Notes under the pieces: model-generated
Seen by the model: only the letters and a program-made list of their open reading frames with translations
The model's database searches: none
What the model was told of the DNA's origin: nothing
DNA from: Trypanosoma brucei
Lineage: Eukaryota
Direction: 5' to 3'
Assembly: GCA_000002445.1 (NCBI GenBank)
Contig: CP000068.1
Location: 1,024,001 to 1,088,000, forward strand
Length of the DNA stretch: 64,000 nt
Translations under genes and position numbers: made by a program
Shown: piece after piece, positions 7,727 through 32,300 of the stretch
Layout of the letters: every line of letters starts with the position of its first letter
How positions within the stretch are numbered: position 1 is the stretch's first letter

Positions 7727-7758
<32 letters not shown>
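7727..7758. repeat. (AT)~16 microsatellite inside a 2.9 kb spacer.
   Basis: The run is directly visible in the sequence. Confidence 0.95.
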
Positions 7759-7762
<4 letters not shown>

Positions 7763-8512: not shown

Positions 8513-8620
8513 GAGAGAGAGAGAGAGAGAAAGAGAGGACAAAAACACATTATTAAACGAAATTAAATTCCCCTAAATACAGACACACACACACACACAT
8601 ATATATATACATATATATGT
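8513..8620. repeat. Compound microsatellite (GA)n / (CA)n / (TA)n: gagagagagagagagaaagagagg ... acacacacacacacatatatatatacatatatat.
   Basis: The compound repeat is directly visible in the sequence. Confidence 0.9.
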
Positions 8621-9317: not shown

Positions 9318-12300
9318 TTACTTCTTTGGTGTTGCAACACTTTTTTTCTTTCGGTTCTTCATAGCCCTTCCCAAATCCGTATCTGCAGCTTCTTGAAATA
9401 CACCGGAGAGCAGTTGATGTGCAAGATTCAGTCCGCGCTGGGTATTCTTGTTATACTCCTGTCGGTGTTGTTGCTCCCGTTCTTGCAAGCAAACCATATT
9501 TTGCTCAAACTGCATGTGCCTTTTCCTGATTTCTTTTGTCAACCCTTCAAACTGAAGTGGCCGAGGATGCGTCTCAGAGGCTGGGATTAGCGTCATGCGT
9601 ATGGGTTTTTTCGAACTTTCAATAAGGGTCATTGGTGTCCGCTTTGTTGCTTCACCGTTCTCAATGTACCGGGGCGTGACAGCCCCACTAGAAAATGCGT
9701 CAGTTAACTGCTTAGATGCCCCTGGTGAGGCAGTTCTATTATCGAACTGAGTACCGGACGGAAAGCAGCGGGGGCTCGGTTGTGCCGATGTTTTCACTTT
9801 GGAAGCATCTACACCCCCTAAGTTTGAAAGTACAGAAGGATGCAGCCGATGCCTCGCGTAGTGAAGGAACAGCGGCGAGCTTAAAGGAAGTGGTACCTTT
9901 ACAGTTCTGTCACGGGTGCTGCGGGTATTGGTCGTAATGGTGGCGGGTAATATGCCCACCGCCGAATTCTCGTCGTGTTCCACAAGCGTAAAAGTCGGTT
10001 TCTCCTCTAACGTGTCATCTAAAGGGGGAAGTGGCACATGCGCAATACTCGCGGCTGAGTGTGCTTCAATGTAATTTCTCACCTTTGCGAGTGCAGCATC
10101 AAGGGGGAAACTACATATCACAGAGTCGCGGACAGCAGTGTCATTGCCACTCTGATTGTTATTCCCGCTTGTATTTTGCTTGCCAGCACCTACTGAAAAC
10201 GAGACCGAAGCCCTGCTCTTTCCGTTGGGAAATATCTGTGGTAGAACATTGTTTCCCTCATTGCCGTTATGCTTTGTCTGGCCCCCCAATGAGTTTTGCC
10301 TAATTTTTTTCCCTGTCTTCCCCTTCGTGTCATCATTTAGAGACTCGGTAACCACACCGGTACCGAGTTTTACGCTCTTATTCGTGCCAAGTGGGGCGTC
10401 CGCACCTGTCTCTGTGAAGCAAACGGACTTTCCACCTTTTTTGTTGCAGTTGCCTTCGGGGCATTCCTGCTTTGGCGCTTCCGTCAACCGGTCGTGCATG
10501 GAGGTCGTGCGCTGCTCAAGTTTCTGAACAAGAAAATTGACGTGCTTAGCGTACTTTTTGAACTCCAGCACTATCCTGTGATATCCGTTTACCACTTCTA
10601 CATCAACATCATCAAACGAGTCATCACCAAGAAATTCAAGCTGCTCATCCTCTGCTGCGGACCCTGCTGCGGTGGACTGCTCGCCATCATTTGAACCCCC
10701 ACGAGGTGAGGAGGGACCGGTGCTGTTGGCCGCGTTCGGATCGCTGTCAAGAGGTCTACTCCCTCGTTTGATAGGAGGGAGCCCGTTGAAATCTGCCCCG
10801 CTTCCACGCGACTGGTGGTCAAAAGAGGGCTGCGCTCCCCCTTTCCTTTGCCGCGGTGTCGGCCACCCAGAGGAACGCACATAGGTTGCCACCAGACCAC
10901 TGCACCAGTAGTAAAATATACGGTAAATATTCACACGCATGACGGCGTTGAGAAGACCTGCTAAGAAGTCGTTTGGAAAACAGTGAACCAGAGCGTAGTA
11001 TGTTACGTGAGGCACGATAATCATATAAGCTGAGAAGACATTATCCTTCTCTGACCGCAGCCGTTCAAAGGACTCACCAAATAGCATGGCAAGTCGGTGA
11101 AAGCAGCGTTCTGCAAGATTCCTCAGTTCGCACACTTCAACGTGAGCAACGGTGAATGTGTCTATGGCATTTGCCAACCGCAACGTCATCACCTTCACGC
11201 CGTCGTGCATCGGGCTCTTCGTGTCGTCAGTTGCACCTGCCTTACCACCATCATCCTCCCTATCAGCACGATTCAGTTGTAACGGATCGAGCGTTGGGTG
11301 AGTTGTGTCCGTGCAGCTCTTCATAGTGTCCGCATTCTCATTGGCTTCTTCAGCGTCACCAAACACGAAGGAGGAAGCAATATTAAATATATTGCTACTA
11401 CATGGTTCAGGTGCTGACAGCATCGCTATAATATCCTCCAGAACCAAGGCTCTTGTTTCTGCCTTCCTCTCGCTACTAATGTTCCTCCCAGTACAGGCAT
11501 TTCTCAGACGTCTGGTAACAATCTGCTCAAGCACCGATAAAGGTGGTAGATCAGACATATAGCGAGGAAACATGGTGCGAAAGACGTGTTCCAGGTTAAC
11601 ATAGCGGTCGATAAGAACTCGTTCAGAGGAGGCGCGACGTGCGTGTGCTACAATATACCAAAAGAACAAGTATATAATCTCATGGCTTTCTGAAAAGTTC
11701 TTCAGGAAGTTCGTGATTCCCACACTTGTTGTCTTTACTCTTTGCTCTCCACGCTCCAGTAAAAGCACCTTTTCAATGGCCTCACTCACGGGCAGAGAAC
11801 TGGGAAATGAGCAACTATCTCCCAGTTTTCCTGTTGTTTCATCAAAGGATGGAAGTGTTACGGAGTATATGGACGGGGCATCCTTCTTTGTTTGTCGCTT
11901 CTGTGTTTCCCGCAGCATCATATGTTTCATAACCGTGACGTCCATTGGCATGTCGTCTGGAACCCCAAGTTCCTCATTTTCGGCCTCACGCATTCTCAGT
12001 GAAGTAACAGAGACCCTTCTACCAACCTTTAGCTCCTCCATAGACGGTTTACAGGTTTGGCAATCATTCGTGCCAGGCCGACTAGTTTCTGGAGTGCGTC
12101 GAATAACCACACGCTTTCCACCTGATTTCAAACGGGCCGCGGGCGGTGGATTGGAGCCGTCTTTCGGAGAATGCGGGGCGCCCTTGCGTGGGGTGGTGCA
12201 ACAACTGCTATTTGCCAACGAAGGTTGACTAAAGGGATTTTCATCACCGTTAGTAAGGTTGCTTTCAGTCCCATCTGTACATGGCACTGCCTCCTCTTCA

Positions 12301-12887
12301 TTTAGCATATCAATGGCAGTGCTAAATCTTTGGCAAAGATTCACTCGCACATCGGGTGTTTCATCCCCCTGTTTTAACGTCGACGAACGAATGCAGGGTC
12401 TCCCCATGTTCCCAGAGATATTGGGGAAAGTGTCTGGAGCTTCGGAACTGTCATCCGACCCCTCAGAACCAGGAGCTTCATTTGAGGAATTAAATCTTGC
12501 ACTTCCGCAAAACTTAGCGCCACCGCCCGGAGGCCCTAGCCCAGTTGTCCCCTTGTTTATACCGATGGGCACAGTAGTTTGTGTGTGGTCGGGCTTTAAT
12601 CTAATGCTTGGTAACCGTCCAGATGTGGATTGAGGTGCAACACATGCCGGAGATTTCCGGTCGGGTTGCTGAGTGCCGCCTCCGAGTGGAAGACAACCTG
12701 ACACTAATGACTCACATTTCGCAAGAAGCGAGTTATACTGTTTAGTTTGTTTTCTCTCCTCCCCCTTCTTGCCGAGCAGAGATGAGGTAATATTGGGTGG
12801 GTCCACACGCGGCAAGGTGGGAAAGGACGTCATCCTCTCTCCTGGCTCACTGCGCTTCGCATTACCCCGCACTCCTGTGATTTGCAT
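9318..12887 (-). CDS. Hypothetical protein, 1189 aa. It has Ser/Gly/Pro-rich low-complexity N- and C-terminal regions and a central hydrophobic-core globular region.
   Basis: Long ORF with a verified ATG start (MQITG...). No confident family motif was recognised. Confidence 0.65.
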   Translation of the reverse strand: MQITGVRGNAKRSEPGERMTSFPTLPRVDPPNITSSLLGKKGEERKQTKQYNSLLAKCESLVSGCLPLGGGTQQPDRKSPACVAPQSTSGRLPSIRLKPDHTQTTVPIGINKGTTGLGPPGGGAKFCGSARFNSSNEAPGSEGSDDSSEAPDTFPNISGNMGRPCIRSSTLKQGDETPDVRVNLCQRFSTAIDMLNEEEAVPCTDGTESNLTNGDENPFSQPSLANSSCCTTPRKGAPHSPKDGSNPPPAARLKSGGKRVVIRRTPETSRPGTNDCQTCKPSMEELKVGRRVSVTSLRMREAENEELGVPDDMPMDVTVMKHMMLRETQKRQTKKDAPSIYSVTLPSFDETTGKLGDSCSFPSSLPVSEAIEKVLLLERGEQRVKTTSVGITNFLKNFSESHEIIYLFFWYIVAHARRASSERVLIDRYVNLEHVFRTMFPRYMSDLPPLSVLEQIVTRRLRNACTGRNISSERKAETRALVLEDIIAMLSAPEPCSSNIFNIASSFVFGDAEEANENADTMKSCTDTTHPTLDPLQLNRADREDDGGKAGATDDTKSPMHDGVKVMTLRLANAIDTFTVAHVEVCELRNLAERCFHRLAMLFGESFERLRSEKDNVFSAYMIIVPHVTYYALVHCFPNDFLAGLLNAVMRVNIYRIFYYWCSGLVATYVRSSGWPTPRQRKGGAQPSFDHQSRGSGADFNGLPPIKRGSRPLDSDPNAANSTGPSSPRGGSNDGEQSTAAGSAAEDEQLEFLGDDSFDDVDVEVVNGYHRIVLEFKKYAKHVNFLVQKLEQRTTSMHDRLTEAPKQECPEGNCNKKGGKSVCFTETGADAPLGTNKSVKLGTGVVTESLNDDTKGKTGKKIRQNSLGGQTKHNGNEGNNVLPQIFPNGKSRASVSFSVGAGKQNTSGNNNQSGNDTAVRDSVICSFPLDAALAKVRNYIEAHSAASIAHVPLPPLDDTLEEKPTFTLVEHDENSAVGILPATITTNTRSTRDRTVKVPLPLSSPLFLHYARHRLHPSVLSNLGGVDASKVKTSAQPSPRCFPSGTQFDNRTASPGASKQLTDAFSSGAVTPRYIENGEATKRTPMTLIESSKKPIRMTLIPASETHPRPLQFEGLTKEIRKRHMQFEQNMVCLQEREQQHRQEYNKNTQRGLNLAHQLLSGVFQEAADTDLGRAMKNRKKKSVATPKK

Positions 12888-18192: not shown

Positions 18193-21100
18193 TCATGCAT
18201 CAACGGCAACAACGCCACCAACACGTTGAAGAAGGAAGACCGCATCCCTCCGCTGTGCGGGGTCGATTCTGAGGCACGAAGAAACTACTAACTGTATTGT
18301 CGGGTCCGCATCCTCTGGAGGTGGTACAGGTTCCAAAAGACCTTCACGCAGCGACTCCATTAGCGCCTCGTGGTCCGAAAGCACCGCAAGTAACTCGTTA
18401 CGTGACCGGCTGATTTGTGCATTAGCTGTCCACCGCCATGGGAAGTCGTCGTTCAACATCTCTATAACAAGCAACCCAAGGGCATACATATCTGTCATCC
18501 ACGACTGGGGTTTGCCACGAGCTTCCTCTGGACTGACACAATAAGTCATTTGATGCTTGAGTAAAGGTGCAGCATCAAGCAGAACCCCAGTCAATCGGCA
18601 ATGGCCCCCCACACAAGTGACAACTGTTTCAGGACACAGGCAACCCTGAACAAGGCCACGCTCGTGGAGACAGGCGAGTCCTCGCAACAGAGAGGTGACG
18701 TGCCGCTTCACCGTGGCGGCGGGTAGCTTCCGGCCATATCGCACTTTAAGATCACGAAGCGTACCACCGGGGACGTACTCCCAAACAAGCAAGACGCCGT
18801 GAGGGGGGACATGACAATACGACAAGCATTGCACAAGGCTGACACTTTCCCCAACCTGAAGCACTTTATCCAGTGCAACGTCCAATTCCTCACGCGTCAA
18901 GCGTTCTCCAAGTTCTGTTAGAGGGTAAAGCTTCAGCAAAGCAAGTACCCCAGTGGCAGACATTCCCATGTACGCTACGCCTACAGAGTTGGCACCCTCA
19001 TGAATGGGGTCGATTGAGCGCTGCCAACTGTTCCCATGACAGTCCTCGAGAAAACGAGGTATCTCACCATTCAGTGTCGAAGCTGCATTCTCCCCCACGA
19101 AGACCGACGGAGTCCGCGGGGAGCCACCGTCACACGGTGACGAGCTTCCACCAGAGGTTTTTCCAGTACCACTCAGCAGCGGCGGCGAAGATATCAGGCT
19201 CGTTGCGCTGCTGTTCAGGCTATCAGGGACGATAAGTAATTGATTAACAAACGGTGTGCGGTCTCTTCTCCCAACACGCGCAGCACACTCATCACGAAGA
19301 CGTTGGGGTTGCAATGACATAAACGAAGGTGATTCCCCCGATAAGGTCACCGACCCCACGGAAATGGCCTTGTCCAGCAATCGTAGTGCAGAGACGTAGT
19401 TGCCACGCACCATCATATCGTACGCCTCGTTGTAGTGGCCCTCAAACTCATTCCATGTCGGCTGCCCAGCATCCCCGGAAAGTACCTCATACAACGTTAC
19501 GCAAACACCGTCTTCGCCTTCCAGAAAAACAGACCTAAATGGTAACAAACGGAAGTGGCCACGCACCAGCAGTGCTGTCTCTTCTGTGACCGCTGCCGCG
19601 ACTCCCACAGATTGAAGGGCATCACCAACCCGCCGGTAGATATTGCGGCACAGAAGCACATAGCGACTTCGTCCACCTCCGCTAACGATGCCACTCGGAA
19701 ATGCACCGGACTCCACAATCACGCGATAAGCACCAGAAACTTCGCTCCGCGCCATCAGCTTCGTGGCCACTTGACGCGCGAACTCAACGGCCCTCGTCGC
19801 CTCAGCAGCGAATTCGCGGTCCATCGACTGCACACCAAAACTCACAATGCAGTAGTCTGGGCGCTGCACCTCGAAGCACCCACCGCAGGCTGCAGCAGCA
19901 CTGACAACTATCTGCATCATCAGCTCCACAACGGCGTCGCTGGGGTTGCGCGTTCTACCGGGCGTATAGTAAACGTAGGCGACGCTGCAGGCGACAGGCT
20001 TCAGTTCCTCACCATATCGACGTGGTGACGAGGCTGCCTCAGGATCAGATGCGCATGCGTCCTTGCTCCTTGACACGCTCGCTGCCGCACCACTTAAATC
20101 AAAAGCACGGTCTGGCATGTATGTCCGCACCGCATTCAGGCGTCGGCGGAGCACACTACACACACCGTGGAGCTCACAAACCTCTCTCAGTGCAATCACT
20201 TTTTGCTTCTCTTCATCAGAAGATTTGACTAGCCCGGCCCTCAGCTTTTCCTCCGTACTTCGGAGCGGGCGGTGAAGGCAAAGCTCCACAAAATAGTAAC
20301 AAGCGGCTATCACAATGAGGTACATTACAAAGCTAGAAAGGCCAGCAATGCCCCCGTAGGTGGCAATCGGGCCCAGGTAATAGCTGGGGTTCGTGACAAC
20401 AACAACAACCATTTCAACCCCGCTGTCAGTGACAATGTGATGTGCACTGGCCACCGCAGCCAACCCGCCGTACATGAACCACGACCTCTGGTTCTTGCCT
20501 CGCGCGGCCTCTTGCAAGTCGAGGTATCGGATAGCTTTGCTCATCAGCGGGTCAGAGACGTCGTCAGGGCTTAGGAACCGTATTGGTTCACCCATGAAAG
20601 CGGATTTCCACTCATCGCTCACATTCGCAAGCGGTTGGCCCCAGTTGTTCGCAAACACGTAGAATTGGCCGCTTTCGTTGTTGGGATCCACAAGCATGAC
20701 GCGGACACCGCTGTCAGACGCCTTGTGCCACCTCACACTAATTTTTCCTGTGTGCATTCCCACGTAAATGTACCCTACACCAACTGTTCCATCGTCCTCT
20801 CTCTCGAAGAAAGGATAGACGTACGCTGCATAAGTGGGTGGGAACCGCGGGCGAACCCAGTACTCAGACGGTTTCATCTCTCGACCTTCTCGCACTGACT
20901 CGTTCCATATCCGCACAACGGAATCAAAGTGAAAGCGTTCCGTGTATTCAGTAATCGTTAATCCAGAGGTAGTGGACTCATACCGTTTCAGTGGCTGCTG
21001 GTACTCCATCGTTACAGGGTCCATATAGTAGAAGTCTTTCATTATCCCTCCCTCACTCACGTGACCATAATACTGGCCAGGATTACTCTTTGAGGCGATA

Positions 21101-21954
21101 CACAGGGCGGCTTGTTTCTTCGTCAACGAGAATGCACCGATAGATGCTATCATGCGCCTTTTATCTACGTCACGAAGAGTAACGCACAGGCTAGAGACCA
21201 TTCCATCCTTTAATGGCATTGCATGATCCATTACGGGATTCGAAAAAGTATTGTTCGAGAAATACATGCTCCCTATCCCCTTCGCCATTCGTGTCATACG
21301 CAGGAAGGGAGTGAACCCCGAAAGGGTGACATAGTTGACTTCGACAACATCATGCAGGGACCCCATCACCGCCACAGAGGCCCGCGCCCATGGGGCGATT
21401 GCAAGTGCTATAGAGATAGCGTACACACAAGTCATGATAACAATCAGGGGGAACAGCACCCAGCAGCGCAGCGACACTCCCCTTGTGGGATTCGTGGTGG
21501 TTTGGTTCGAAACACGAGGCACTTCCTCCTCCATTGATCCTACCACTGATGCAGAACGGGAGTTGGCAGGATGTGTGACAACCTGCAACCCACGTCCAGT
21601 GTTGCAGTGAGTGTTGGGAGAATGATGGTCATATTTCATTGCATAGCCACTTCCAGGGCGTGGTGACCAGGGACCGATACCACCAAAACCAGGTAAGTGA
21701 ACCCCTCCCCCATGATGCCCCACAGCGGCCCCAACCAGCCCCGAGGACGGTAGCGGCTTCGCGTCGCTGCTAAACGGATGTTCGGTGCTCCTCGCGGTAT
21801 TACGGACAATCTCCGGTGCCGTTTCTCTACCATTACACTCCCTTGATGAGCATGGCGCTGCATTTCCTACGTTAAACCCGTCCCGCTTCGAGTGGTTGTT
21901 TTCCTTCTCGGTACTGAAGGAGTGACTATCCCCGAGGGAAGAAACATTGCGCAT
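18193..21954 (-). CDS. Receptor-like membrane protein, 1253 aa. Two predicted TM helices flank a ~330-aa ectodomain. A long cytosolic region follows, ending in a protein-kinase-like domain that is probably a pseudokinase. A divergent nucleotide-cyclase-like stretch may precede it.
   Basis: ATG verified (MRNVSS...). Hydrophobic segments: VLFPLIVIMTCVYAISIALAIAPW and YLGPIATYGGIAGLSSFVMYLIVIAACYYFVELCL. Kinase-like blocks: VWEYVPGGTLRDL (hinge), LACLHERGLVQGCLCPETVV (the HRDLKPEN position, with the catalytic Asp missing), and DMYALGLLVIEML (subdomain IX). The cyclase-like block ...YRVIVESGAF...GIVSGGGRSRYVLLCRNIYRRVGDAL is only a weak resemblance. Confidence 0.7.
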   Translation of the reverse strand: MRNVSSLGDSHSFSTEKENNHSKRDGFNVGNAAPCSSRECNGRETAPEIVRNTARSTEHPFSSDAKPLPSSGLVGAAVGHHGGGVHLPGFGGIGPWSPRPGSGYAMKYDHHSPNTHCNTGRGLQVVTHPANSRSASVVGSMEEEVPRVSNQTTTNPTRGVSLRCWVLFPLIVIMTCVYAISIALAIAPWARASVAVMGSLHDVVEVNYVTLSGFTPFLRMTRMAKGIGSMYFSNNTFSNPVMDHAMPLKDGMVSSLCVTLRDVDKRRMIASIGAFSLTKKQAALCIASKSNPGQYYGHVSEGGIMKDFYYMDPVTMEYQQPLKRYESTTSGLTITEYTERFHFDSVVRIWNESVREGREMKPSEYWVRPRFPPTYAAYVYPFFEREDDGTVGVGYIYVGMHTGKISVRWHKASDSGVRVMLVDPNNESGQFYVFANNWGQPLANVSDEWKSAFMGEPIRFLSPDDVSDPLMSKAIRYLDLQEAARGKNQRSWFMYGGLAAVASAHHIVTDSGVEMVVVVVTNPSYYLGPIATYGGIAGLSSFVMYLIVIAACYYFVELCLHRPLRSTEEKLRAGLVKSSDEEKQKVIALREVCELHGVCSVLRRRLNAVRTYMPDRAFDLSGAAASVSRSKDACASDPEAASSPRRYGEELKPVACSVAYVYYTPGRTRNPSDAVVELMMQIVVSAAAACGGCFEVQRPDYCIVSFGVQSMDREFAAEATRAVEFARQVATKLMARSEVSGAYRVIVESGAFPSGIVSGGGRSRYVLLCRNIYRRVGDALQSVGVAAAVTEETALLVRGHFRLLPFRSVFLEGEDGVCVTLYEVLSGDAGQPTWNEFEGHYNEAYDMMVRGNYVSALRLLDKAISVGSVTLSGESPSFMSLQPQRLRDECAARVGRRDRTPFVNQLLIVPDSLNSSATSLISSPPLLSGTGKTSGGSSSPCDGGSPRTPSVFVGENAASTLNGEIPRFLEDCHGNSWQRSIDPIHEGANSVGVAYMGMSATGVLALLKLYPLTELGERLTREELDVALDKVLQVGESVSLVQCLSYCHVPPHGVLLVWEYVPGGTLRDLKVRYGRKLPAATVKRHVTSLLRGLACLHERGLVQGCLCPETVVTCVGGHCRLTGVLLDAAPLLKHQMTYCVSPEEARGKPQSWMTDMYALGLLVIEMLNDDFPWRWTANAQISRSRNELLAVLSDHEALMESLREGLLEPVPPPEDADPTIQLVVSSCLRIDPAQRRDAVFLLQRVGGVVAVDA

Positions 21955-23311
21955 TGTCAGTGCTACCTCGGCCTACAAACTAAAAGAGTGTCCGCACGTT
22001 TATTTCTTCACTACACTCGACCAACCACTATATCACTTAAATTACGAAAAAAAAAAGAAAGAAAACGTGTTGAGTAAGTGGCAGGAACGTGCTTATCCCC
22101 TCGTGCTGGTAAGGAAGTTACTCACTTTGTGCTGCTGTTCGTTACTTTATTCACCTCGTTTTTTCATATGCTTTTAGTACACCTCTGATGATACTTGTGT
22201 TTGCTTGCCTCCACAGACTCGTTGTGCATATATAATAAGTTCCGTGCCCAAGGTGATGAAGATTGCATTCTCTGGGGTATTATTCACGTTGATACGGTCA
22301 TCAATAAATTTTATTTGTTGGTACAGATGACGCTTCGCTGTTAAGCATACCGGTGTTGGTTAGGCAGACACCAACTTTGGGATGAGGTTCAGCACGGCAT
22401 GCTGTGGTTGAAAAAATACCCACTCATCCCCGTTATTTAGTTGTGTTAACTTTCCAGCCCGCGATAACACACTCCCGCAAAAAAACTTGCGGGGTAGAGA
22501 GGCACTATAGATGCTTTAAAAACATATGGTGAAGAGAACGATTATGCAAGATAAAATTAGCAGCGGTATAGCCCGATGGTACGGCATACTGCTTACAATG
22601 TTCCTGTTCTTGCACGATTATGCGAAGATACGTACAAGAGTAAGCAGTTAACTGAGTGACGTACAATGGGTTTATTCGACAGCAACTTGAGACAGATGTT
22701 TTCGACCTTCGGTCGCTCGCTCCCGCAAGTGGTGTACCTTTTGTGGACAGAGTAGTCAGCGTCGTACCTACCCCACTTTCAAAGGGAGAAAATAGTAGTG
22801 GAAACGAAACGATAAACAAACATGGTTTTGTAAATTTTGCACAAAAAGTAAACCCGATCATCGAAAACGTTTTAAAGTTAAGGATTTAGCTTACAATAAG
22901 AAAGCGGCGAAAGCATCTCTAACCCGCCTCCCGCGCGAAGTGGAGAGGGTTGTCACTGGGTGGGTTTTCAAAACTTACCTCCCTCATCATTGCGTGTGTG
23001 ATGATATAAAAGAGAAAACATAAAGATTATAAAACTGTGGTAAGATATCACCGTTTCTTTCAGAAGCTCACACATTGTCAGTGGCATTGAACAAAAACAA
23101 AAGGGTTAAAGCGAAACTTTAAAAAAAAAAGAGGTAAACGCGATAGTACATGAGTTAGTGTGAGGAAAGAATGTCTGACCTCCGAAAGACTAAGGAGCAC
23201 ATAAACTCTCACTTTATACAGTTCGCGGGCTTCACAGTTTTATCGCCACCCTATCGTTCAATGCCCCAAAACAGTCTTCACACAGAAAGATATCCCTTCA
23301 ACAGCATTTGT

Positions 23312-26300
23312 TTATTGCGGACGAATTTTCATCATCACTGCAAAAGTGGACGGCGATAGACTAGAATGAGCTTTTCCATTACGTGCGTCGCTATCAGAGG
23401 CGATGAGGCTTCTTTTCACAAATAATTTATGCTCTTCAAGCAGGTGCAGGGCCAGACGCCAGAACCCCAGGGGTATGTTGTTACTGCGCTCTGTATTCAC
23501 TACATGCTGCCTTTGCCATAGTTGATGTGCCGTGTACACTGTCCTAACCAGGCGTTCAAGAAGAAAACCGTCAACAACCACATGCTGTGAGAGGAGCTTC
23601 TCGGTGTCTATATCATCCGCGTTAACCGATGTGTCGAACCCACTTTCTCTCTTAGGAGGGTTGGTAAGGGCTTGCAAGGTTCGCCTCAGTGGTTGCTGGC
23701 CAGGCGCACCGACTCGTGCGACATATTTGCAAGCCGAGCTCCACTGCCCACACCGGCAAAGAATTTCCAACAGTGTCACGAATGGAACAGAGAGGTCGGC
23801 TTTCGGACGTGCGTTAAGAAAGAAAACACCAAAAAGTTGTAATGACTTTTCCCAGAGAAGCAGATCGTTGTCGCAACTGCGTGTGGAAGTTGGCTCGCCG
23901 TTTACTTCACCCAACCGTTCTTCCCACGACAGTCCTCTGCCCTGACCCCAATCCCCTTTATCTTCAAATTCGTTGCAATCTTCGGCACCTTCCCCGGAAC
24001 TGCATGGCAGCAACACCTCACCAAGCGTCAAACTCTCTTTCGGGGCAAAGCATAGACGAACAATATCAAAAGCCTTAGAAACATAATGAACTACAACCGC
24101 AGCTGTCACCCCCTCGACCTCCACGTCGGGACAAGCGCTTTTGTAAAAAAGATCCCACAAAACTGACTGCTCCGCGACGGTTAAAGCGAGCAAATAGCGC
24201 AGCGGTGGAGTAATAAGTTTATCATCCCGTGCGATTTGGCTCAGAACTTCAAGTGTTTGGGAGAGCCTCGTGGAACCACACCCCGCGACCGCTGCAGCAA
24301 ACACGCGGCACAACAACGACGATGAAATTGGAAGAGAACTGTGAAGCATCATCTGTTGCTTAATGACATGCGCCGCTGCAAGAGCAGTGTTGCGAAGTTC
24401 ACAAAGGGATTCTTGCGTGGGAATGACGGTTTGCACCAATTCGGGAATCTGGATACGGTCCCCGCCAATATTTTCACCCGAAGAGCGCATGCTCATTTGG
24501 AAAATGGACTGTGCATCTTCGCTGAAGGCATGACCTCCAAATGTCCGTGATAAGGCAATGGGTAGTAGTACCCTAACGTCACCTAAAAATTGCTGAGTAA
24601 CGGCAACAGCATGGGATTCATTACCCATAGTTTTTGGTGTCATAGACGCCTTTTCCGGCAACGTACATAGAATCAGCACTATTGACTCCACGAGACTAGG
24701 TTTGAAGCAATGAATGCGACTGAACTGGGTGGACCATTCCAGGAACGATGCGAACATCTGAATACCCTCCTGTGTCTCATCAGCTGAAGCACACCCTCCC
24801 TCTTGTGTAGCAAACCGTAGTTTCCATGCCGCATCCGTGATAAGGACAAGTAGTTCCTCGGAGGGAATAAAATAAGGCATTTCTCCCACCTCATATGCGT
24901 TCGTTTCTGAGCGTGGTAAGGAAGATATCTTCTGCCCGGTATTACGTCCGGTTCGTGCATAGGGGATTAACGTCATTGCTTTCGCATATTGTAGTATAAG
25001 TAAAGGAGGCACAGCAGCTCGTGAGAGTACATGTAGTAACCTCTCGACGTCTCGTACATCCGGTGTACTACCATCTTGAAGTTGAGAAAAGTACAAGAAC
25101 ATTACCGCATCAGCCATCTCAATAGGTTTCAAGCCTTTTCCGCGTTCTTCCAAAAGGAGGAATAATTTCCGATAATGGCTCCGTTGCAGCCGAACACCTG
25201 CAGCCCGCCTCTTTTCAACCAAAAAGACAAGTTTGGCACAATCAACTGACAATTTTTTTTCAACGGTTGAAAGGTATTCCAATTCTTGAAGTTCCATATC
25301 ATCCGCTAGCAGTTCTGCTTGCCGCTGTGCTACAAGCGGAGGACCACCCAGAAGTGACTCACAGATCACAAGGAATCGTAAGCCATGCCTCTGGTCCATA
25401 TTATTAATACACGCCACCTTCAAAAGTGACATCGCCTCCTCCGACAATCGAATGCCATGAGGACGCACCAGGGAATCGCACAGTGCTTTCATTGCATTCA
25501 ATCCCCTGTCACCCGTAAGACTTGCACAATGAAAGAGTGCATCAACAACATCCTGCCTCAGCATACCCTGCTGAGAAAGGTTACACCCCTTGCCAGTACT
25601 GAAGAAACAACGACGGAGCTCATTGTTGCTTGCTACCAAAGACAAGGCGTCACACCATAACCCTTTGAGCGCCTCCTGGCATCCGGTCACTGCGGGAACG
25701 GGACACTTTTGGAGCTTGTTGAGTATCACAAACGCGTCACGGATGCTAACCATCACGGCGTTAAGTACACTGGCGTGCCGTTGGTGTGGGGGCAATGCAT
25801 TTAGAACACACAAAAGCAGCAACCGCCACCGCTCAAGCGACGAAACAATATTGGCGGCTGAAATATTACCACGAGTGGTTGATGCGGTTCCTATGGGCGT
25901 TAGTGCGAGACAGCCAATCATGTGGCACCCCAGCTCCGTGTTACCCCAAAACGCTCCGATCCCCGATGTAGAAGAAACAGATTCTTTCTCCTGCAATCGT
26001 TCCAAAACATCCTCAACAAAATGATTAAGCATTTCAAGCTCGTTAAGCGTATTCTGCAAAAGCATTGGTAGATGCTTCTCGGAGGTCTCAGTGTTGACGA
26101 AGTTGATAGCCTGACGCTTCATGGAATGCAACCCAGAAAATAACAGTGATAAGGCTTCCGTGCAGATTGAGTCGGCAGTGCTCACGGAATCGCCCAACGG
26201 AACTGCTTCAGGTGAAAACAAAAACACATCGCGCGCTGCAGTAACAACAACTCCAAGGGACCCGCTAGCCACCATTAGGTTAACTAGCTGCGTTGCTTGC

Positions 26301-29300
26301 GCTGCCGTAACGCACGGCCGTCCGATATAGGATCTTGCAGAGACGTACGCTGCGAGGGCCGATAGCCAATCACTGCTTCCGCCGCCAGGTCTGGCGCGAA
26401 ATATCTCCCGATTGCGCCAAAAAAGTATCGTATTGCGCTGGTTTGTATCTGAAGGAGTTCTAGCAAGCAACTTATACTGTTCGTTGTTCGTGTACAGTGC
26501 CTCGTTATACGCAGCTGTGGAGCACAAGAAATCTAACCATTCATTCTTTTCTTCAGTGGGTGGACACAGCTTTACTTTTTGGTATTCACGCTGGAGCGCC
26601 CCGCAAAGCCGAGAAGTGGTGGTTGGGAACACGCCGGAAAGGATTTCCACTAGCAGCCGAGTCGCGGTGCGGTTCACGCAAAGCATACGCAATGCTGAGG
26701 AGGTAACACCCTCACTGTCATTCTCTATCTGATTGCCCTCTGCAGCTTCACAAGTGGAAAGTATTTCTTGCACAGTAGCTTCCAAAACACTCAGTGGTCC
26801 CTCCACAGTTTTCGGCACATCTCGTTGCACCCACCGAAGTGTCAACGCGAGTGGCTCAAAACAAACGGAATCATTTGTTTGTGCCCTCAGCCATGCCACG
26901 GCTATAAAAACCCCTGTCCACTGCGAGCGCTCGGAAAGTCCGCTAGGACAATTAGATGCGACTTCGAACGCGGTTACCGCTAATGTTAACGAATCCGCGG
27001 GGAGATTGCGAAAAATAACAACCCGTTCGTAGCACTGAATGTATGTTGTCGGTGCCGCGTACATGCATTCACTTCCGTCCTGCCCACCATGAAGCAACTC
27101 GTCATAGAAGTGTACGACGGCACTGTGATGGAACCGCCGTATCAAACTGACGCAGGCGTCGTGAGTCGCCCGAGATTGAAGTAACTGAGGCGCCTGTCTT
27201 GCAACAACAGCTGCGTCACCAGTTTGACCATTGCGCAGCAAGTCATGCAGGTGCCGTTCTTTCCTCGATAAGGTCCCGGAGGATTGCTCCCGTAGCATAT
27301 CATCCACAGTTTTACCAATAAGTGTGCCATTCAGAAGTGAGAGGATCACCCACGGCCCGTTGCTATCGGCAGAGATGGGGAAAACAACTGATGCTGCGTG
27401 TTCCAGCATCGCCAAAGTATCGCGTCCTCTAATTCGAGGGTTATCTGTTGTCTGCTGTGCTGCTTCCACAAACCTCAGCAAAGGTTCATATGCCTGTCGC
27501 TTGTACATCCGCTGCATTGTCGCGGTCACAAAGGCTGCCTTTGCTTCGCGCAAAATGATATAGGATTTGTCACCATTGTCTCTCTTTGGATCCGTCTTCT
27601 TCGTTACATCACTTGAGTTCGGCCGATGAAAGCTCAAAGATTGCAGGACAGCGAGGCCGTCTATCCATCCCAAATATGGGTGTTTCTGCAGTTTCTTCGT
27701 GAGGTCCGCAAGCATTTGGGCGCAGTTTAGGTGACGGACAGAACTGTTACACCCTCTACTAATGAGTTGTACGAAGGGTGGTTTAGCAGCAAGGAAGCGA
27801 AGAAATTCCACTAAGACTGCGATTGGGATGGAAGTCATGCTGCAAGCTCCAAGTACGTAGCGTAGCGTTTCCGATAGTGCCTCATCAACTGTACGAAAGT
27901 ATTGCAGAGTTGAGCCAGCAGAGACTGCGGGGAGGCGCTGCACTAGGTTAAGGGCGGGCACCCACTGATCTAATGGTTGCGCAATGTGGATGGTGCGAAG
28001 CGCAAGTTCGGTCGCGCGGCGGCAGTGCTCATTTCCACTTACAACACACCACATATTCTTTTCTGCAGTCCTGGTGATGGAAACAAGGGCTTCTTTCCAT
28101 AGGTGACGAATAGCGTTAACGCCCCTACTACGAAGCAAAAAAAGCTGCGTCATGATAACTATAAAAAAACGACACCGCAACCCCTCGACACCACACTCGT
28201 CGCTGTTGTCAGGCATGAAACGTAACGACCGGCGCCATGGCAGAAGCCTTATCTCTTCAGAACTAGCATGCATGGGAGAAGCGTACGCTTCCTTTTCCAA
28301 TGACTTCAGCAACCCTTCAGTGAGGCACACATGCGTACTTTGGTTTGGGGTTTTTCTGAAGATGAGGAGAGCGTCTAGCATTCGGCCAAGGCGAAGAAAT
28401 GGTGGGTCGTAGTGCGGTCTGTTATTCCTATAAAGGAGAAATAGCCTGCAACCACGATGAACAGATTTTAAAGAGTGATACTCTAAAAGAGACAAAGCAT
28501 CCTCGAGTGGCGCTCGTTCGACCCGGTCCGATTCCACAACGCACCGCCAAAGCAGGTGCTCCAACTCCACCTCTTCGATCTCTGACATACCAGAGATAGT
28601 GCGGCTCTTTGCAGAGAGCAATGCATATAACTCAGCCATCATCGCTACTGCCTCTGGGGTGTTTAGTGGAACGTACTGGAATCTACGCAAAATTAAGTCG
28701 AGGGTTGAACGACACAGCGCAGCACAGCTCTTAGAGACACGATATTTTTGCGCCTCGATCAACAAAACTAGCACCTTTTCCAGCATCATCGTTGTGACCA
28801 CCATGTAGGGGGCAACTGTAGCAAAAACCTGCAGGGCCGCACATATGGCACCGACGTCGCCGTTACCTGAGACGGCCGCATCAAGGATTTTGAATGTGAC
28901 ATCATGCGAAGGTACAACGGCGGCGCTCCACAGTGCTTTTTGCACAACAGTATATGTATCGGGGAATGCGGATAGTAGCGCAGAAAACTCTGCACCCTTC
29001 ATTTCCTCACCATCCAGAAGCAATATTTCTGGAGCGCCAGCGATCACATCACCACCGTTATGGCTTGCAAGTATTTCGTGCAGTTTATAGTGCAACCGAA
29101 CTTCTTGTCGCTGCCTTCTAGTGTCTTGCCTTTTCCACTTACCATTCAAAAAATCCAGCAACATTTCAACTGTTACAGCCTCATCCTGGGAAACTGCTGT
29201 CCGTCTTGGCCGCGACGCCAGAATAACCCTGCGAACGCCAGAACCAAATATCTTCTCCAACTCGCTCTCCACCTCACCTGTCACAATATCCACTTCCCTC

Positions 29301-32300
29301 AACGACAGTTGACCTCCGTCGTATAGTAGGAGAAAGTCTAAAAGCGCGGTGTATGCAGTATCAAGTGTTAATTGCCGTTTATCATGCCATCCCAGAGGAT
29401 TAACGAAACGAACTGATGCGACAAGGGCCCGTACATGAAACAATAACATGTCCTTTAAATCACAGGGTTGCCTCGACCTGCCAATCTCAACTCCCAAATT
29501 ATCAGGAAAGTTTGACCAACTGGAAGTTTTAACATCGTTAGCTACCAGTAGACGAGTGGCTTCGCGCCGCTGCTCTAGTTTTAGCAGCGACACCACGTGG
29601 TCAACAACGACGGTGCGCCGTTCTTCAAGGTCCTCGCGTACCACAAGCAACTGCGTGAGCGCAACCACTCCAGTTGTACTAACTGGTGCATAACCCGATA
29701 GGAATGAGTGCGCCCCGGAAGGCGGTTCAGAAATGCGACTTGTGCGTGGGAAAATAGCATCCACAAGGTTACGAATAACATCATATACTCCTATGTTGGC
29801 GTGGTCCGACCAATGACACGGTTCCCGTGACCATCGTTTGATAGCGAGAGAGGCAAATTGATCAACAACGAGTCCAGCGGCTGTTCCACGCACATATAGC
29901 GGAGCCGCCGTACTGTCCTCTACCTTCACTTGTGTGCTTCGCTCTGGTGACACCAAAGTGAAATAAGCAACTCCCCTCAAAATGTAACCCTGTAAAATGT
30001 CAAGCAAGCCGATGACGTCGAAAAGTCGTGCCTTCTCTCCACGAAAACGGGAAGATGCAGCGACACACTGTTCCATTAGCCAACAAATTGCTTTGGGGTG
30101 GCGAACTTGGCAAGCATCCACCTTCACTGAATTACTACAAAGAACCCCATCGACATACCGACGACAACGCGACAATTCCAACGACATAGGCGGCCACAGC
30201 GAAATCCACGTGGTATCATCACGTACTAATCGAATCGCCAAATTAATATGGTCATCAAAGAAAGAACTTTCACAAACTTGTACATGCCAATGTTTCTGCA
30301 GCCCAAGCTTGCGAATAGCAGCTCCCGCAACGTCGACACACCTTTTTCTAAACAGTGCTTCATCAAAATGTCCCTGCTTCTCTTCCCACTCACGATTCCG
30401 GCTACCACCACAAACAATAGCAGTGTGCGCAAACATCTCAGCAATAAGCTGCCGTTGTTGTTGGGTGCTATTCTTCGAAATTAATGATGAATCCCCACTA
30501 CGTCTTAGCGCACCCACTGCCAGAACGACAAATAACGCTGCTGTATTGTGATCGAGAGGGGCTTCCGCCACCCCTTCTACGTCAGTCGACTCCTGAAGGC
30601 CGCCAAACTCCACGCGACGGATGCACAAAACATTCCACATGCTGATCACAGCGTCTAACAGCGGTGGTGGGCCGTTGAGTCGTTTGAGAACCGCGTGAGC
30701 GACCTCCTGCATGCTGCGACAACATCCAGCAATAAACAAAAGCAACTCACGCTCCTCTTTCACAGGCCCCCCACTACTGAAAAGAGCATAAACGTATTGT
30801 AGACAACTGAAACCGCTACTCACGGCGAGGAGAGTGTCTTCAACAGTTACATCTGTTATATAGCCATCCCCACGCAGCACAGTCATTATGGTTTTACAGT
30901 CGTAGGGGAAAGGAATAACGAAATCTGACCCTTTTGACCCATTTGCACCCACTCTTTCCGACTGTTCTCGCCGAAGTTCCTTGGCCCAAGACATGCCAAA
31001 CAACGCCCGTGGAAAGTTCAGTGTAACTGAGCTAGCAGCAACTGTGGTGGCAGGCACGGTCGCCGAGTTCTCCACAGAGAAGGAGGTGGTGGGAGGTGTT
31101 TCCAACGCCATGGAGGGCGACACCAAAAGAGGTTGAGTCTCTTCACTTTGGAGCCGCCGTCCCAAAGCTGTTGTGGCCTTCAAAGTAGCGTAACTCCAAA
31201 TAATAAAGTGCTGAGTGTCATTACTTATAGCTTCCCACGGCCACAATGCAACGCAGTCGACTATCCACGAATCAAATGTATCACGATCCCGGCCCCGTTG
31301 CTTTTGGGGTGAAGTTCCGATCCCATGAGATAATGATGCCATACGTTCACAGGCTACAAACTGTACGGACGAATCACAACTCAAAAGTGTCCCCAAGACG
31401 CGTTGTCGGCCCTCTCTGTCGTGTTTTTGCCGTGCGTTTCCCAGCACTATAGATGCAGCCTGGAATATCTGTTGATGCCGACGCTGCACTAACAGGCGCA
31501 ACGGCGACGAATCGGGTCCCCGATATTGTGGGGGCGCAAGGCTGCTGCAATTAAAGTGAGCATTGAGGTCCGACGTAGCCCGCAACAGTTCGACATAGTC
31601 TTGCTGCAGACCGGAGTGATGTTTATCATCCCTACGCCCCTCCGAACAAGGTGACCCACAACGAACCTCAAGGAGCGTTTGAAGTGCCACACCCCGGGGC
31701 CACGGTCCACATGATTGGATGGCAACTGCTAGCCTTTCCCAGAGTTTCGCCTTACTAACTAGAACCTCATTTGCATCACTCACTTCTTTTCGCTGCGGCT
31801 GCGACAAAACCAATGAACAGCCACGCGCTGCGGCGAGTGCTAAGTCCCATCTGTTCGGTACGGTGGCACCCACTGCATTAATAACAGAAAACACCACCTC
31901 CTCCGCATGCAGACTAGTATACTCATCACGTTGCCTGTTGGTTACAAGCACACCGAGAACGAGAAGCTCCACCAAATTCTCACCCGAACAAATAATCATT
32001 CGCAGCAACTCGGATACCATGGTAATGCGCATCGCCGAAGGTAAGAAATAGAGAAGGAGCTGCTCAGCATTTGCGATAAATTGTGGTGTGAACGGAACCA
32101 GCGATTTCACAACGCGGTGGATCAAGGAGGGAGAAACGCCCAAGAAGATCAACCAGACGACCACAAGGACTGTCAAAAGAGATGCATCTCCCTGCAGCAA
32201 CTCCCTTGCTTTAGCATCAAATGGAAGAATCAATACAGCGTCCTGCAGAAAATTGTTCGGCATCGATATAGCTGATTCTAGCATTATCAGCGCGACAGCC

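What the first reader, a model, noticed from the sequence alone, without database searches (positions are those of the whole stretch)
18193..21954. Receptor-like two-TM protein ending in a catalytically dead kinase domain, possibly with a degenerate cyclase-like module
The layout is a short N-terminal region, TM1, a ~330-aa ectodomain, TM2, then a ~690-aa cytosolic region. The C-terminus carries recognisable kinase subdomains V, VIb and IX. The catalytic HRD Asp is replaced (LHERGLVQGCLCPE), so it is a predicted pseudokinase. The region just after TM2 weakly resembles a class III nucleotide cyclase core whose metal- and substrate-binding residues are not conserved. The classical trypanosome receptor adenylate cyclases (GRESAG4/ESAG4) run signal peptide, large ectodomain, one TM, then an active cyclase, with no kinase. 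This protein does not fit that layout.
Basis: partly seen in the sequence, partly recalled or inferred. Interest (0 to 1): 0.6.

Follow-up and report, generated by a model that had tools for sequence, protein, structure and literature searches.

The report
Membrane sensor with two dead enzymes
This Trypanosoma brucei gene (Tb927.5.3320) encodes a two-pass membrane protein with a bacterial-type outside sensor and, inside the cell, an inactive cyclase-like domain and an inactive kinase domain; it is an unrecognised "dead" relative of a known trypanosome receptor-kinase family, not a new kind of protein.

Summary
Window 18193-21954 (-) is a 1253-aa ORF identical to T. brucei XP_845004.1. Published RNAi primers show it is Tb927.5.3320, already annotated "pseudokinase, putative".

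- **Topology:** two hydrophobic segments (about aa 166-190 and 534-560) flank a roughly 340-aa ectodomain.
- **Kinase domain:** it passes the Pfam threshold but lacks the HRD Asp (QGC), the DFG Asp (TGV), the catalytic-loop Lys and Asn, and the alphaC Glu.
- **Cyclase-like module:** it is real but visible only at profile and fold level. A profile of 15 kinetoplastid relatives hits solved class III cyclases (best E=9.5e-6). An AlphaFold model of aa 561-900 matches only class III cyclases among its top 50 PDB hits. One metal Asp and both substrate-specifying residues are lost.

The cassette is therefore dCache-TM-(HAMP-like)-cyclase-like-(TPR-like)-kinase, the layout published for RDK1 and the "nucleotide-cyclase-like" kinases (Jensen 2021). 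That paper does not mention this gene. It is a new member of a known kind, with both enzyme modules dead but conserved. It most likely acts as a ligand-sensing scaffold or allosteric partner; this function is inferred, not shown.

The parts
18193..21954 (-). Whole ORF, 1253 aa plus stop codon = Tb927.5.3320 (XP_845004.1, UniProt Q57Z61)
   Evidence: ORF listing. Exact-sequence look-up. The Jones 2014 RNAi primers for Tb927.5.3320 match at 19041-19060 (-, exact) and 18607-18627 (+, 1 mismatch).
21460..21954 (-). N-terminal tail, aa 1-165. It is S/G/P-rich, poorly conserved (15-18% identity to orthologues) and inferred cytosolic. Some assemblies call the gene from Met106.
   Evidence: Composition, per-domain identity, 1148-aa variants in the cluster. 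The side of the membrane is inferred.
21385..21459 (-). TM1, about aa 166-190
   Evidence: Hydropathy peak of 2.55 at 166-184. In the model it is part of one continuous long helix.
20356..21384 (-). Extracytosolic double-Cache (dCache)-like sensor domain, about aa 191-533. It carries a Cys pair (C257, C285) invariant across the family and sequons conserved among orthologues (N235-T, N351-S, N444-S).
20275..20355 (-). TM2, about aa 534-560
   Evidence: Hydropathy peak of 2.19 at 542-560, followed by the basic stretch HRPLRSTEEKLR.
20110..20274 (-). HAMP-like two-helix linker, aa 561-615, ending in the family-invariant Pro of R-x-Y/F-x-P (RTYMPDR, 610-616)
   Evidence: It aligns column for column with the post-TM2 linker of the bacterial cyclase P0091, and P614 is invariant in 16 sequences. 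The model shows two helices at low confidence (pLDDT 53-69). Pfam HAMP is not detected.
20008..20109 (-). Variable loop predicted to be disordered, aa 616-649
   Evidence: pLDDT 29-43; 10-21% identity between orthologues.
19465..20007 (-). Degenerate class III cyclase-homology domain, aa ~650-830, the best conserved part of the protein. Metal Asp A is absent, metal Asp B is D700, the substrate Lys is V696, the Thr/Asp is V766, and the Asn and Arg are uncertain (N771 or Y773; R775 or R776).
   Evidence: The kinetoplastid-only profile A5 hits solved cyclases (2w01 9.5e-6, 6fht 1.6e-4, ADCY10 3.3e-4, CyaB 3.5e-4). The A2 profile hits the bacterial cyclase P0091 at E=4.2e-4 among 1.84 billion proteins. 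A5 hits P0097, a HAMP+Guanylate_cyc protein, at E=3.6e-5. The model has block-mean pLDDT 75-96 here. The Foldseek top 50 are all class III cyclases (1wc1 E=2.1e-10, target TM about 0.7). Identity to orthologues is 58-65%.
19261..19464 (-). TPR-like helical hairpin plus one further helix, aa 831-898
   Evidence: Pfam TPR_2 gives E=0.27 at 838-865, below threshold. The model has helices at aa 832-849, 853-870 and 882-895. Weak profile hits to designed TPR proteins. The same motif follows the cyclase domain in bacterial P0097 and in the paralogue P0042.
19030..19260 (-). S/P/G-rich variable linker, aa 899-975
   Evidence: 25-29% identity to orthologues.
18196..19029 (-). Pseudokinase domain, aa ~976-1253. 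K1008 is kept. HRD is QGC (1103-1105), the catalytic-loop Lys is C1107, the Asn is T1110, DFG is TGV (1122-1124), and SPE is at 1141-1143.
   Evidence: Pfam Pkinase, 43.7 bits against a cut-off of 31.7. Alignment to StkP. Motif alignment with 33 family kinase domains. 52-57% identity to orthologues.

Best explanation
Tb927.5.3320 is a two-pass membrane, receptor-like protein of the kinetoplastid 'bacterial sensor - cyclase-like - STE11-like kinase' family, whose known members include RDK1. Its domain order is: cytosolic tail, TM1, extracytosolic dCache sensor, TM2, HAMP-like helices, degenerate class III cyclase-homology domain, TPR-like hairpin, flexible linker, pseudokinase.

Shown here: the domain folds, the homology, the loss of catalytic residues in both enzyme-like modules, and their conservation across Trypanosoma.

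Inferred: the protein makes neither cAMP/cGMP nor phosphoproteins. A small ligand would bind the dCache domain on the lumenal or extracellular side. The signal would pass through TM2 and the HAMP-like helices to the cyclase-like domain, which in this fold family works as an obligate dimer and here would serve as a dimerisation and transducer module. The result would be a change in the arrangement of the pseudokinase domains. These would then act as a scaffold or allosteric regulator of an active partner, plausibly an active paralogue of the same family or another kinase.
For: - **Identity and topology:**
- **Kinase fold with dead catalytic motifs:**
- **Common origin with active kinases:** the kinase domain scores 103 bits (E=6e-32) against the active STE11-like paralogue P0042, but only about 30 bits against any solved kinase. 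This supports whole-protein duplication followed by decay of the active site.
- **Cyclase-homology domain:**, with the residue audit.
- **dCache ectodomain:**
- **Bacterial cassette:** the bacterial relatives carry the same layout. P0091 has a sub-threshold dCache_1 hit plus Guanylate_cyc. P0097 has HAMP, Guanylate_cyc and a weak TPR_2 hit.
- **Purifying selection on the dead modules:** the cyclase-like domain is 58-65% and the pseudokinase 52-57% identical across T. grayi, T. vivax, T. rangeli and T. theileri, against 10-29% in the linkers.
- **Extracytosolic exposure:** a Cys pair invariant across the family and N-glycosylation sequons conserved among orthologues lie in the ectodomain.
- **Literature:** the RDK1 layout is described as sensor, TMD, cyclase fold, ePK (PMC8519429). 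RDK1 has kinase activity but no adenylyl cyclase activity (preprint 10.64898/2026.05.05.722970). The mRNA is expressed and 2.4-fold higher in cultured bloodstream forms than in procyclic forms (PMC2771046).
Against: - No ligand, partner, localisation or phenotype is known.
- RNAi gave no growth defect in bloodstream forms, and RIT-seq shows no loss of fitness (PMC3894213 supplement). Any role is therefore non-essential in culture.
- Pfam does not detect the cyclase, dCache or HAMP domains on the single sequence.
- The HAMP-like helices are modelled at low confidence.
- The alignment used for the cyclase-region model contained one bacterial cyclase row out of 16, which could bias the model. The kinetoplastid-only profile result is independent of that row.
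- K1008 and possibly the Asn/Arg pair of the cyclase-like domain survive, so nucleotide binding cannot be excluded.
- Dimerisation and partner regulation are inferred from what is known of class III cyclases and of pseudokinases. Neither was tested.
Confidence: 0.72

Rival explanations
1. The protein is an atypical but active kinase, or another ATP-using enzyme. The kinase-like domain would use a non-canonical mechanism, with displaced catalytic residues or AMPylation-type chemistry, as seen in a few proteins once called pseudokinases.
For: The beta3 Lys K1008 and a Gly-containing loop (EGANSVG) are retained, and the domain is 52-57% conserved between species. From general knowledge, some predicted pseudokinases such as WNK, CASK and SelO turned out to be active.
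Against: Five canonical elements are lost together in T. brucei: the HRD Asp, the catalytic-loop Lys, the Asn, the DFG Asp and the alphaC Glu. The replacing residues differ between orthologues (QGC, HGH, HGR), which argues against a conserved substitute catalytic residue at that position.
Confidence: 0.08
2. The cyclase-like domain is a working adenylyl or guanylyl cyclase, alone or as a heterodimer in which a partner supplies the missing residues. This would be a receptor cyclase regulated by its pseudokinase, an inverted receptor guanylyl cyclase.
For: The fold is a class III cyclase. D700, possibly N771 and R775/776 are retained. Class III cyclases form composite active sites across a dimer, so a degenerate subunit can complement another (general knowledge). 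The RDK1 preprint leaves guanylyl cyclase activity open.
Against: Metal Asp A lies in a deleted segment. The substrate-specifying Lys/Glu is Val696 and the Thr/Asp is Val766. The Asn is His in T. rangeli and the Arg is Leu in T. grayi. Pfam Guanylate_cyc does not score. The related RDK1 showed no adenylyl cyclase activity and no effect on cAMP. The active-kinase paralogues inspected show similar degeneration, so no obvious complementing partner exists in the family.
Confidence: 0.04
3. The gene is a decaying relic: a duplicated receptor kinase drifting towards loss, with no function of its own.
For: There is no growth phenotype by RNAi or RIT-seq in bloodstream forms. The presumed Leishmania counterpart LmxM.08.0660 is dispensable and flagged 'not syntenic' in several species. 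T. grayi has an extra tandem paralogue that is missing at this position in T. brucei, which shows gene turnover at the locus.
Against: The 1253-codon ORF is intact and has long orthologues in five Trypanosoma lineages (two of the records are partial). Identity is domain-specific: 58-65% in the 'dead' cyclase-like domain against 10-29% in the linkers. That is the signature of purifying selection. The mRNA is expressed and stage-regulated.
Confidence: 0.06

Closest known systems
RDK1 (Tb927.11.14070) and the 'nucleotide-cyclase-like' transmembrane STE/STE11 kinases Tb927.3.5650, Tb927.9.12400 and Tb927.10.1910 (Jensen et al. 2021, PMC8519429)
   Same: The order of modules is the same: bacterial-type sensor outside, transmembrane segment, class III cyclase fold, C-terminal eukaryotic kinase domain. 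The structural neighbours of the sensor are also the same (TlpQ and the Zhang & Hendrickson histidine-kinase ectodomains). A profile of this protein retrieves kinetoplastid proteins of about 1100-1400 aa with an active STE11-like kinase and the same N-terminal cassette. Its kinase domain is far closer to theirs (103 bits) than to any solved kinase (about 30 bits).
   Different: The kinase here is catalytically dead. The gene is filed among 'Pseudo-Orphan' pseudokinases. It is not among the ten transmembrane kinases of that paper, which says the three listed kinases are the only T. brucei protein kinases identified with cyclase-like domains. I did not map individual hits to those T. brucei gene IDs.
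Bacterial class IIIb membrane adenylate cyclases with dCache/HAMP sensors (for example hits P0091 and P0097; solved catalytic domains CyaC 1wc1, CyaB 3r5g, Cya2 2w01)
   Same: The cassette is two TM segments, a dCache ectodomain, a HAMP-type linker with a conserved Pro, a cyclase-homology domain and a TPR-like motif. It is alignable over its whole length, and the cyclase-homology domain has the same fold.
   Different: The bacterial proteins keep all catalytic residues and end after the TPR-like motif. Here most catalytic residues are lost, a variable loop of about 35 aa separates the linker from the cyclase-like domain, and a eukaryotic kinase-like domain is appended.
Metazoan receptor guanylyl cyclases (GC-A and similar; RGC group)
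   Same: A membrane receptor that combines a pseudokinase (kinase-homology domain) with a class III cyclase domain. GC-A appears among the fold hits (9bcs).
   Different: The order is inverted (cyclase-like, then pseudokinase). There are two TM segments instead of one. The ectodomain is dCache rather than periplasmic-binding-protein type. The cyclase is dead here. Parsons 2005 found no RGC-group kinases in trypanosomatids.
Trypanosome receptor-type adenylate cyclases (ESAG4/GRESAG4)
   Same: [quoted passage not shown]
   Different: From general knowledge and PMC1266030/PMC8519429, those proteins have a single TM segment, a different ectodomain type, an active cyclase and no kinase domain. No such gene lies in this window.

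Membership tests
Eukaryotic protein kinase superfamily (Pfam PF00069) | Significant match to the kinase-domain profile | tested here: met
   E=2.8e-11, 43.7 bits against a cut-off of 31.7, aa 1035-1239. 343 PDB kinase sequences match at E<=1.
Eukaryotic protein kinase superfamily (catalytically competent members) | Catalytic Asp of HRD, the Lys and Asn of the catalytic loop, and the Mg-binding Asp of DFG | tested here: not met
   QGC replaces HRD, C1107 replaces the Lys, T1110 replaces the Asn, and TGV replaces DFG. The Asp and DFG are also absent in the T. grayi and T. vivax orthologues.
Eukaryotic protein kinase superfamily (catalytically competent members) | The beta3 Lys paired with the alphaC Glu | tested here: inconclusive
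   K1008 aligns with the VAIK Lys of active paralogues, but the alphaC Glu position is Ala. Pfam does not cover the N-lobe (profile positions 1-54 are unmatched).
Class III nucleotidyl cyclase (Pfam PF00211, Guanylate_cyc) | Sequence match to the family | tested here: inconclusive
   The single sequence gives no Pfam hit at E<=10, and a 3-ortholog profile gives no cyclase in the PDB. The 15-sequence kinetoplastid profile hits solved cyclases at 9.5e-6 to 3.5e-4 and a HAMP+PF00211 protein at 3.6e-5. The A2 profile hits the bacterial cyclase P0091 at 4.2e-4.
Class III nucleotidyl cyclase | Cyclase-homology-domain fold | tested here: met
   The model has block-mean pLDDT 75-96 over aa 650-830. 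The top 50 Foldseek PDB hits are all class III cyclases, with best E=2.1e-10 and target TM 0.65-0.71.
Class III nucleotidyl cyclase (active members) | Two metal-binding Asp, the substrate-specifying Lys/Glu and Asp/Thr, and the transition-state Asn and Arg | tested here: not met
   Asp A falls in a deleted segment. Asp B is D700. The Lys is V696 and the Thr/Asp is V766. The Asn is N771 or Y773 depending on the alignment, and the Arg is R775 or R776. These last two are not conserved in the T. rangeli and T. grayi orthologues.
dCache sensor domains (Pfam PF02743 and relatives) | Sequence match to the family | tested here: not met
   No Pfam hit for aa 161-565 at E<=10.
dCache sensor domains | A long N-terminal helix plus two tandem PAS-like modules, placed between two TM segments | tested here: met
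dCache sensor domains | A ligand-binding pocket with a known motif | not tested
   Model coordinates cannot be inspected with these tools. Only the family-invariant Cys pair (C257, C285) was noted.
HAMP domain (PF00672) | Profile match, or a two-helix parallel coiled-coil after TM2 with a conserved Pro | tested here: inconclusive
   No Pfam hit. The segment aligns with the linker of bacterial P0091, and the profile hit P0097 carries Pfam HAMP. The two modelled helices have pLDDT of only 53-69.
RDK1-type kinetoplastid sensor/cyclase-like/kinase family (Jensen 2021) | Bacterial-type sensor, TM, cyclase fold and a C-terminal ePK-type domain, in that order, conserved in kinetoplastids | tested here: met
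   All four modules were demonstrated. Full-length homologues with active kinases occur in Trypanosoma and Bodo saltans. Direct identity of the hits with RDK1 was not checked.
Metazoan receptor guanylyl cyclase group | Single TM, then a kinase-homology domain, then an active cyclase | tested here: not met
   The order is reversed, there are two TM segments, and the cyclase residues are degenerate.
ESAG4/GRESAG4 receptor adenylate cyclases | Single TM, an active cyclase and no kinase domain | tested here: not met
   There are two TM segments, a kinase-like domain is present and the cyclase residues are lost.

The most novel reading that the evidence does not exclude
Trypanosomatids hold a whole, unrecognised set of 'doubly dead' dCache-cyclase-like-pseudokinase receptors. 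The search found at least three clades, distinguished by their catalytic-loop motifs (HGx-CPE, HGN-RPE, HGx-S/LxD). These would act as ligand-binding regulatory subunits that heterodimerise, through the cyclase-like domain, with the active RDK1-type receptor kinases. The arrangement would parallel HER3/HER2 or the alpha/beta subunits of soluble guanylyl cyclase. It would give these parasites a combinatorial environmental-sensing system of bacterial origin.
Probability: 0.2. Interest if true: 0.65.

Novelty: new member of a known kind. Interest (0 to 1): 0.36.

Why it matters
How trypanosomes sense their hosts is poorly understood. They lack G-protein-coupled receptors and receptor tyrosine kinases, and only a handful of membrane kinases are known. 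One of these, RDK1, represses differentiation, and another, MEKK1, acts in quorum sensing.

This result shows that a gene filed as an 'orphan pseudokinase' carries the complete bacterial-type sensor cassette of that family. It also shows that several such pseudokinase clades exist. That enlarges the candidate receptor repertoire and suggests testable partners for RDK1-type kinases. It also explains why the 'cyclase' domains of this family show no cyclase activity: the catalytic residues are degenerate across the family members examined.

The advance is incremental. The pseudokinase call and the architecture type were both already published.

Tried and rejected
- **Pfam and NCBIfam:** scans of the non-kinase parts gave nothing useful.
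- **3-ortholog profile against the PDB:** a profile of the cyclase-like region gave only chance-level hits. More diverse sequences were needed.
- **First word-indexed homology search:** it found only three relatives.
- **Word-indexed search with the family alignment:** only 8000 candidates were scored and it returned a single protein, although an informative one. I could not list the T. brucei paralogues by name or map the hits to RDK1.
- **Possible cyclase neighbours:** I considered whether the two neighbouring ORFs of about 1190 aa (2850-6416 and 9318-12887) were GRESAG4-like cyclases or paralogues. They are not, and they are unrelated to each other.
- **Possible tandem-paralogue remnant:** I looked in the 1.36-kb spacer upstream for a remnant of the T. 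grayi tandem paralogue and found none.
- **Literature:** searches for the UniProt accession, for 'cyclase homology domain' with pseudokinase and trypanosome, and for LmxM.08.0660 in main texts returned nothing.
- **Unverified ID mapping:** the old ID Tb05.27M3.470 and its COG partner LmjF08.0660 (Parsons 2005) are linked to this gene only by inference. It is the only chromosome-5 non-catalytic kinase in the list.
- **Unresolved residue:** the position of the transition-state Asn (N771 or Y773) differs between the pairwise and the multiple alignment. I could not settle it without model coordinates.

Full report
**1. What is there**

The window is Trypanosoma brucei DNA. All 14 ORFs of at least 250 aa lie on the minus strand, as expected for a polycistronic unit. 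The flagged interval 18193-21954 (-) is one ORF of 1253 aa. It is identical to XP_845004.1 / AAZ11445.1 / UniProt Q57Z61, 'protein kinase, putative', of strain TREU927.

The gene-specific parts of the RNAi primers that Jones et al. 2014 list for Tb927.5.3320 match inside the ORF. One matches at 19041-19060 exactly and the other at 18607-18627 with one mismatch, and no match is expected by chance. The gene is therefore Tb927.5.3320.

**2. Check of the observation**

A hydropathy scan finds two strong hydrophobic segments, 166-184 and 542-560, and two weaker ones inside folded domains.

Pfam Pkinase matches aa 1035-1239 with E=2.8e-11, 43.7 bits against a gathering score of 31.7. The match covers profile positions 55-255 only. 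Solved kinases match at about 30 bits at most.

No cyclase, Cache or HAMP family scores on the single sequence, even at E<=10.

**3. The kinase-like domain is dead, and the loss is old**

I aligned the domain with StkP and with 33 kinase domains of the same family. The changes are:

| Element | In Tb927.5.3320 |
|---|---|
| HRD | QGC (1103-1105) |
| Catalytic-loop Lys | C1107 |
| Catalytic-loop Asn | T1110 |
| DFG | TGV (1122-1124) |
| alphaC Glu | Ala |
| beta3 Lys | kept (K1008) |
| APE-like motif | kept (SPE 1141-1143) |
| Subdomain IX Asp | kept (D1155) |
| Subdomain XI Arg | kept (R1235) |

The T. grayi and T. vivax orthologues read HGH and HGR, and LKG and LMG. Most paralogous pseudokinase clades also lack both Asp residues; one clade keeps HGD but lacks DFG.

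The domain scores 103 bits (E=6e-32) against the active STE11-like kinase domain of the paralogue P0042, whose motifs are HCDVKPHN and SDFG. This is far more than against any solved kinase. It therefore descends from the kinase of the same receptor family.

This status is already in the literature:
- 'Unique, probably non-catalytic' for the only chromosome-5 entry of that class (Parsons 2005 supplement).
- 'Pseudo-Orphan' (Jones 2014 supplement).
- 'Pseudokinase, putative' (PMC7952579).

**4. The cyclase-like module is real**

Region aa 650-830 is the most conserved part of the protein, at 58-65% identity to four Trypanosoma orthologues.

A 3-ortholog profile of aa 160-895 was searched exhaustively against 1.84 billion representative proteins and gave 81 hits. 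From their sequences these fall into five groups:
- orthologues;
- paralogous proteins of about 1300 aa with the same layout and a degenerate kinase;
- proteins with the same N-terminal cassette and an active STE11-like kinase, including one from Bodo saltans;
- kinase-less bodonid or other eukaryotic proteins that keep a GD motif, two of which score on Pfam Guanylate_cyc;
- a bacterial protein, P0091 (E=4.2e-4), which is a bona fide cyclase: Guanylate_cyc at 84 bits plus a sub-threshold dCache_1 hit.

A profile of 15 kinetoplastid sequences only (A5) was searched against the PDB. Its eight best hits are all class III cyclases: Cya2 2w01 at 9.5e-6, 6fht at 1.6e-4, human ADCY10 at 3.3e-4 and CyaB at 3.5e-4. 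With the bacterial row included, the CyaB hit rises to 1.5e-16. I discount that value as partly circular.

The same kinetoplastid-only profile, run in the 5.8-billion word-indexed search, returned a single protein. It carries Pfam HAMP and Guanylate_cyc (E=3.6e-5).

An AlphaFold2 model of aa 561-900 has mean pLDDT 77, with block means of 75-96 over the cyclase-like core. Its top 50 Foldseek hits in the PDB are all class III cyclases, including CyaC 1wc1 at E=2.1e-10 with target-normalised TM about 0.7, rhodopsin-guanylyl cyclase, Rv1625c, CyaB, bPAC and GC-A.

**5. Catalytic audit of the cyclase-like domain**

The reference is bacterial P0091, with motifs FFSDIADFT, KYIGD and YTVIGDAVNIASR.
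- The segment holding metal Asp A is deleted after C656-V661.
- Metal Asp B is kept as D700.
- The adenine- or guanine-specifying Lys/Glu is V696.
- The Thr/Asp is V766.
- The transition-state Asn aligns with N771 in the pairwise alignment but with Y773 in the multiple alignment. The Arg aligns with R775 or R776.
- These last two positions are His in T. rangeli and Leu in T. grayi.

Cyclase activity is therefore very unlikely. The active-kinase paralogues show comparable degeneration. This agrees with the report that RDK1 has kinase activity but no adenylyl cyclase activity (preprint 10.64898/2026.05.05.722970).

**6. The ectodomain is a dCache sensor**

An AlphaFold2 model of aa 161-565 has mean pLDDT 84.9 and pTM 0.78. 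It shows a long helix running from TM1, two alpha/beta modules, and a helix leading into TM2.

A Cys pair (C257, C285) is invariant across 21 family members. Three N-glycosylation sequons are conserved among orthologues. Both features fit exposure to the lumen or cell exterior. That orientation is an inference; basic residues on the cytosolic sides of both TM segments also support it.

**7. Linkers**

The 55 residues after TM2 align with the post-membrane linker of the bacterial cyclase. They end in a Pro that is invariant in all 16 aligned sequences (RTYMPDR in this protein, SRYVPHQ in P0091). The profile hit P0097 has a Pfam HAMP domain at the equivalent place. For this protein HAMP stays 'like' only: there is no Pfam hit and the model confidence is low.

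After the cyclase-like domain comes a TPR-like helical hairpin. The evidence is weak: TPR_2 at E=0.27, and weak profile hits to designed TPR proteins. The same motif follows the cyclase domain in bacterial P0097 and in paralogue P0042. It therefore seems to belong to the ancestral cassette.

**8. Comparison with what is known**

Jensen et al. 2021 (PMC8519429) described ten T. brucei kinases with transmembrane domains. [quoted passage not shown] RDK1, by HHpred, has a bacterial sensor (TlpQ-like), a TMD, an adenylyl/guanylyl cyclase fold and an ePK domain.

Tb927.5.3320 is not mentioned in that paper, and I found no paper giving it this architecture. It is not a receptor guanylyl cyclase, because the order is inverted, there are two TM segments and the ectodomain is dCache. 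It is not an ESAG4/GRESAG4 cyclase either.

**9. How it most likely works**

Shown:
- the folds;
- the homology;
- the dead catalytic sites;
- domain-specific conservation (cyclase-like 58-65%, pseudokinase 52-57%, dCache 40-48%, linkers 10-29%);
- expression.

Inferred: a ligand binds the dCache domain. The signal passes through TM2 and the HAMP-like helices to a dimeric cyclase-like module that acts as a transducer rather than an enzyme. The pseudokinase then scaffolds or allosterically regulates an active kinase, possibly an active paralogue.

Against a strong role: there was no growth defect by RNAi or RIT-seq in cultured bloodstream forms. The presumed Leishmania counterpart is dispensable in promastigotes; that mapping rests on Parsons' orthology table and was not verified here.

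**10. Verdict**

The finding is a new member of a known kind: the pseudokinase branch of the RDK1-type family of sensor, cyclase-like domain and kinase. Interest is modest. It refines an annotation, extends a small and biologically important receptor family, and suggests a heterodimer hypothesis. Both the pseudokinase call and the architecture type were already published.

Noticed in passing
window 21955-23311; locus L001 3507-8100: In T. grayi the gene order is: giant 4629-aa gene, a 185-aa ORF, a 1344-aa paralogous pseudokinase (P0023, HGN-RPE type), then the orthologue of this gene. In T. brucei only a 1.36-kb spacer separates the giant gene from Tb927.5.3320, and tblastn finds no remnant of the paralogue. 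The tandem copy was therefore lost in T. brucei or gained in the T. grayi lineage.
   Followed up: partly
window 23312-37600 (-): The ORF directly upstream is 4762 aa, listed from a TTG codon. A 4629-aa gene sits at the equivalent position in T. grayi. I did not examine its function.
   Followed up: no
window 21637-21639 (Met106 of the ORF): Several independent assemblies call an 1148-aa product that starts at Met106 (MKYDHH...). The first 105 residues are poorly conserved, so the true start codon is uncertain. The T. vivax orthologue is called at 1185 aa.
   Followed up: no
window 1-64000: All 14 ORFs of at least 250 aa are on the minus strand, so the window lies within one polycistronic transcription unit. 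GC drops to about 0.40 at 6001-10000, between two long ORFs.
   Followed up: no
window 2850-6416 (-) and 9318-12887 (-): Two ORFs of almost equal length (1188 and 1189 aa) lie downstream. They are not paralogues of each other (best blastp E=0.52) and not related to the receptor family. The second has a sub-threshold Pfam FWWh hit (19.6 bits against a cut-off of 25).
   Followed up: partly
window 41355-42599 (-) and 45861-47684 (-): The first is a 414-aa ORF with a Ribosomal_L2_C domain (E=7e-21). It is long for a bacterial-type L2, so possibly a mitochondrial ribosomal protein. The second is a 607-aa ORF with a just sub-threshold JHY (cilia-related) hit (25.3 bits against 27).
   Followed up: no
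proteins P0035 and P0039 (family members): One paralogous clade keeps the catalytic Asp (HGD...RPEN) but lacks DFG (KLRGFFGN). The active site of this receptor-kinase family has therefore decayed in different ways in different clades.
   Followed up: no
proteins P0047, P0049 and P0056 (family members): Three family members are about 3500-3800 aa long. Huge low-complexity insertions surround the same dCache/cyclase-like/pseudokinase core. Their species were not determined.
   Followed up: no
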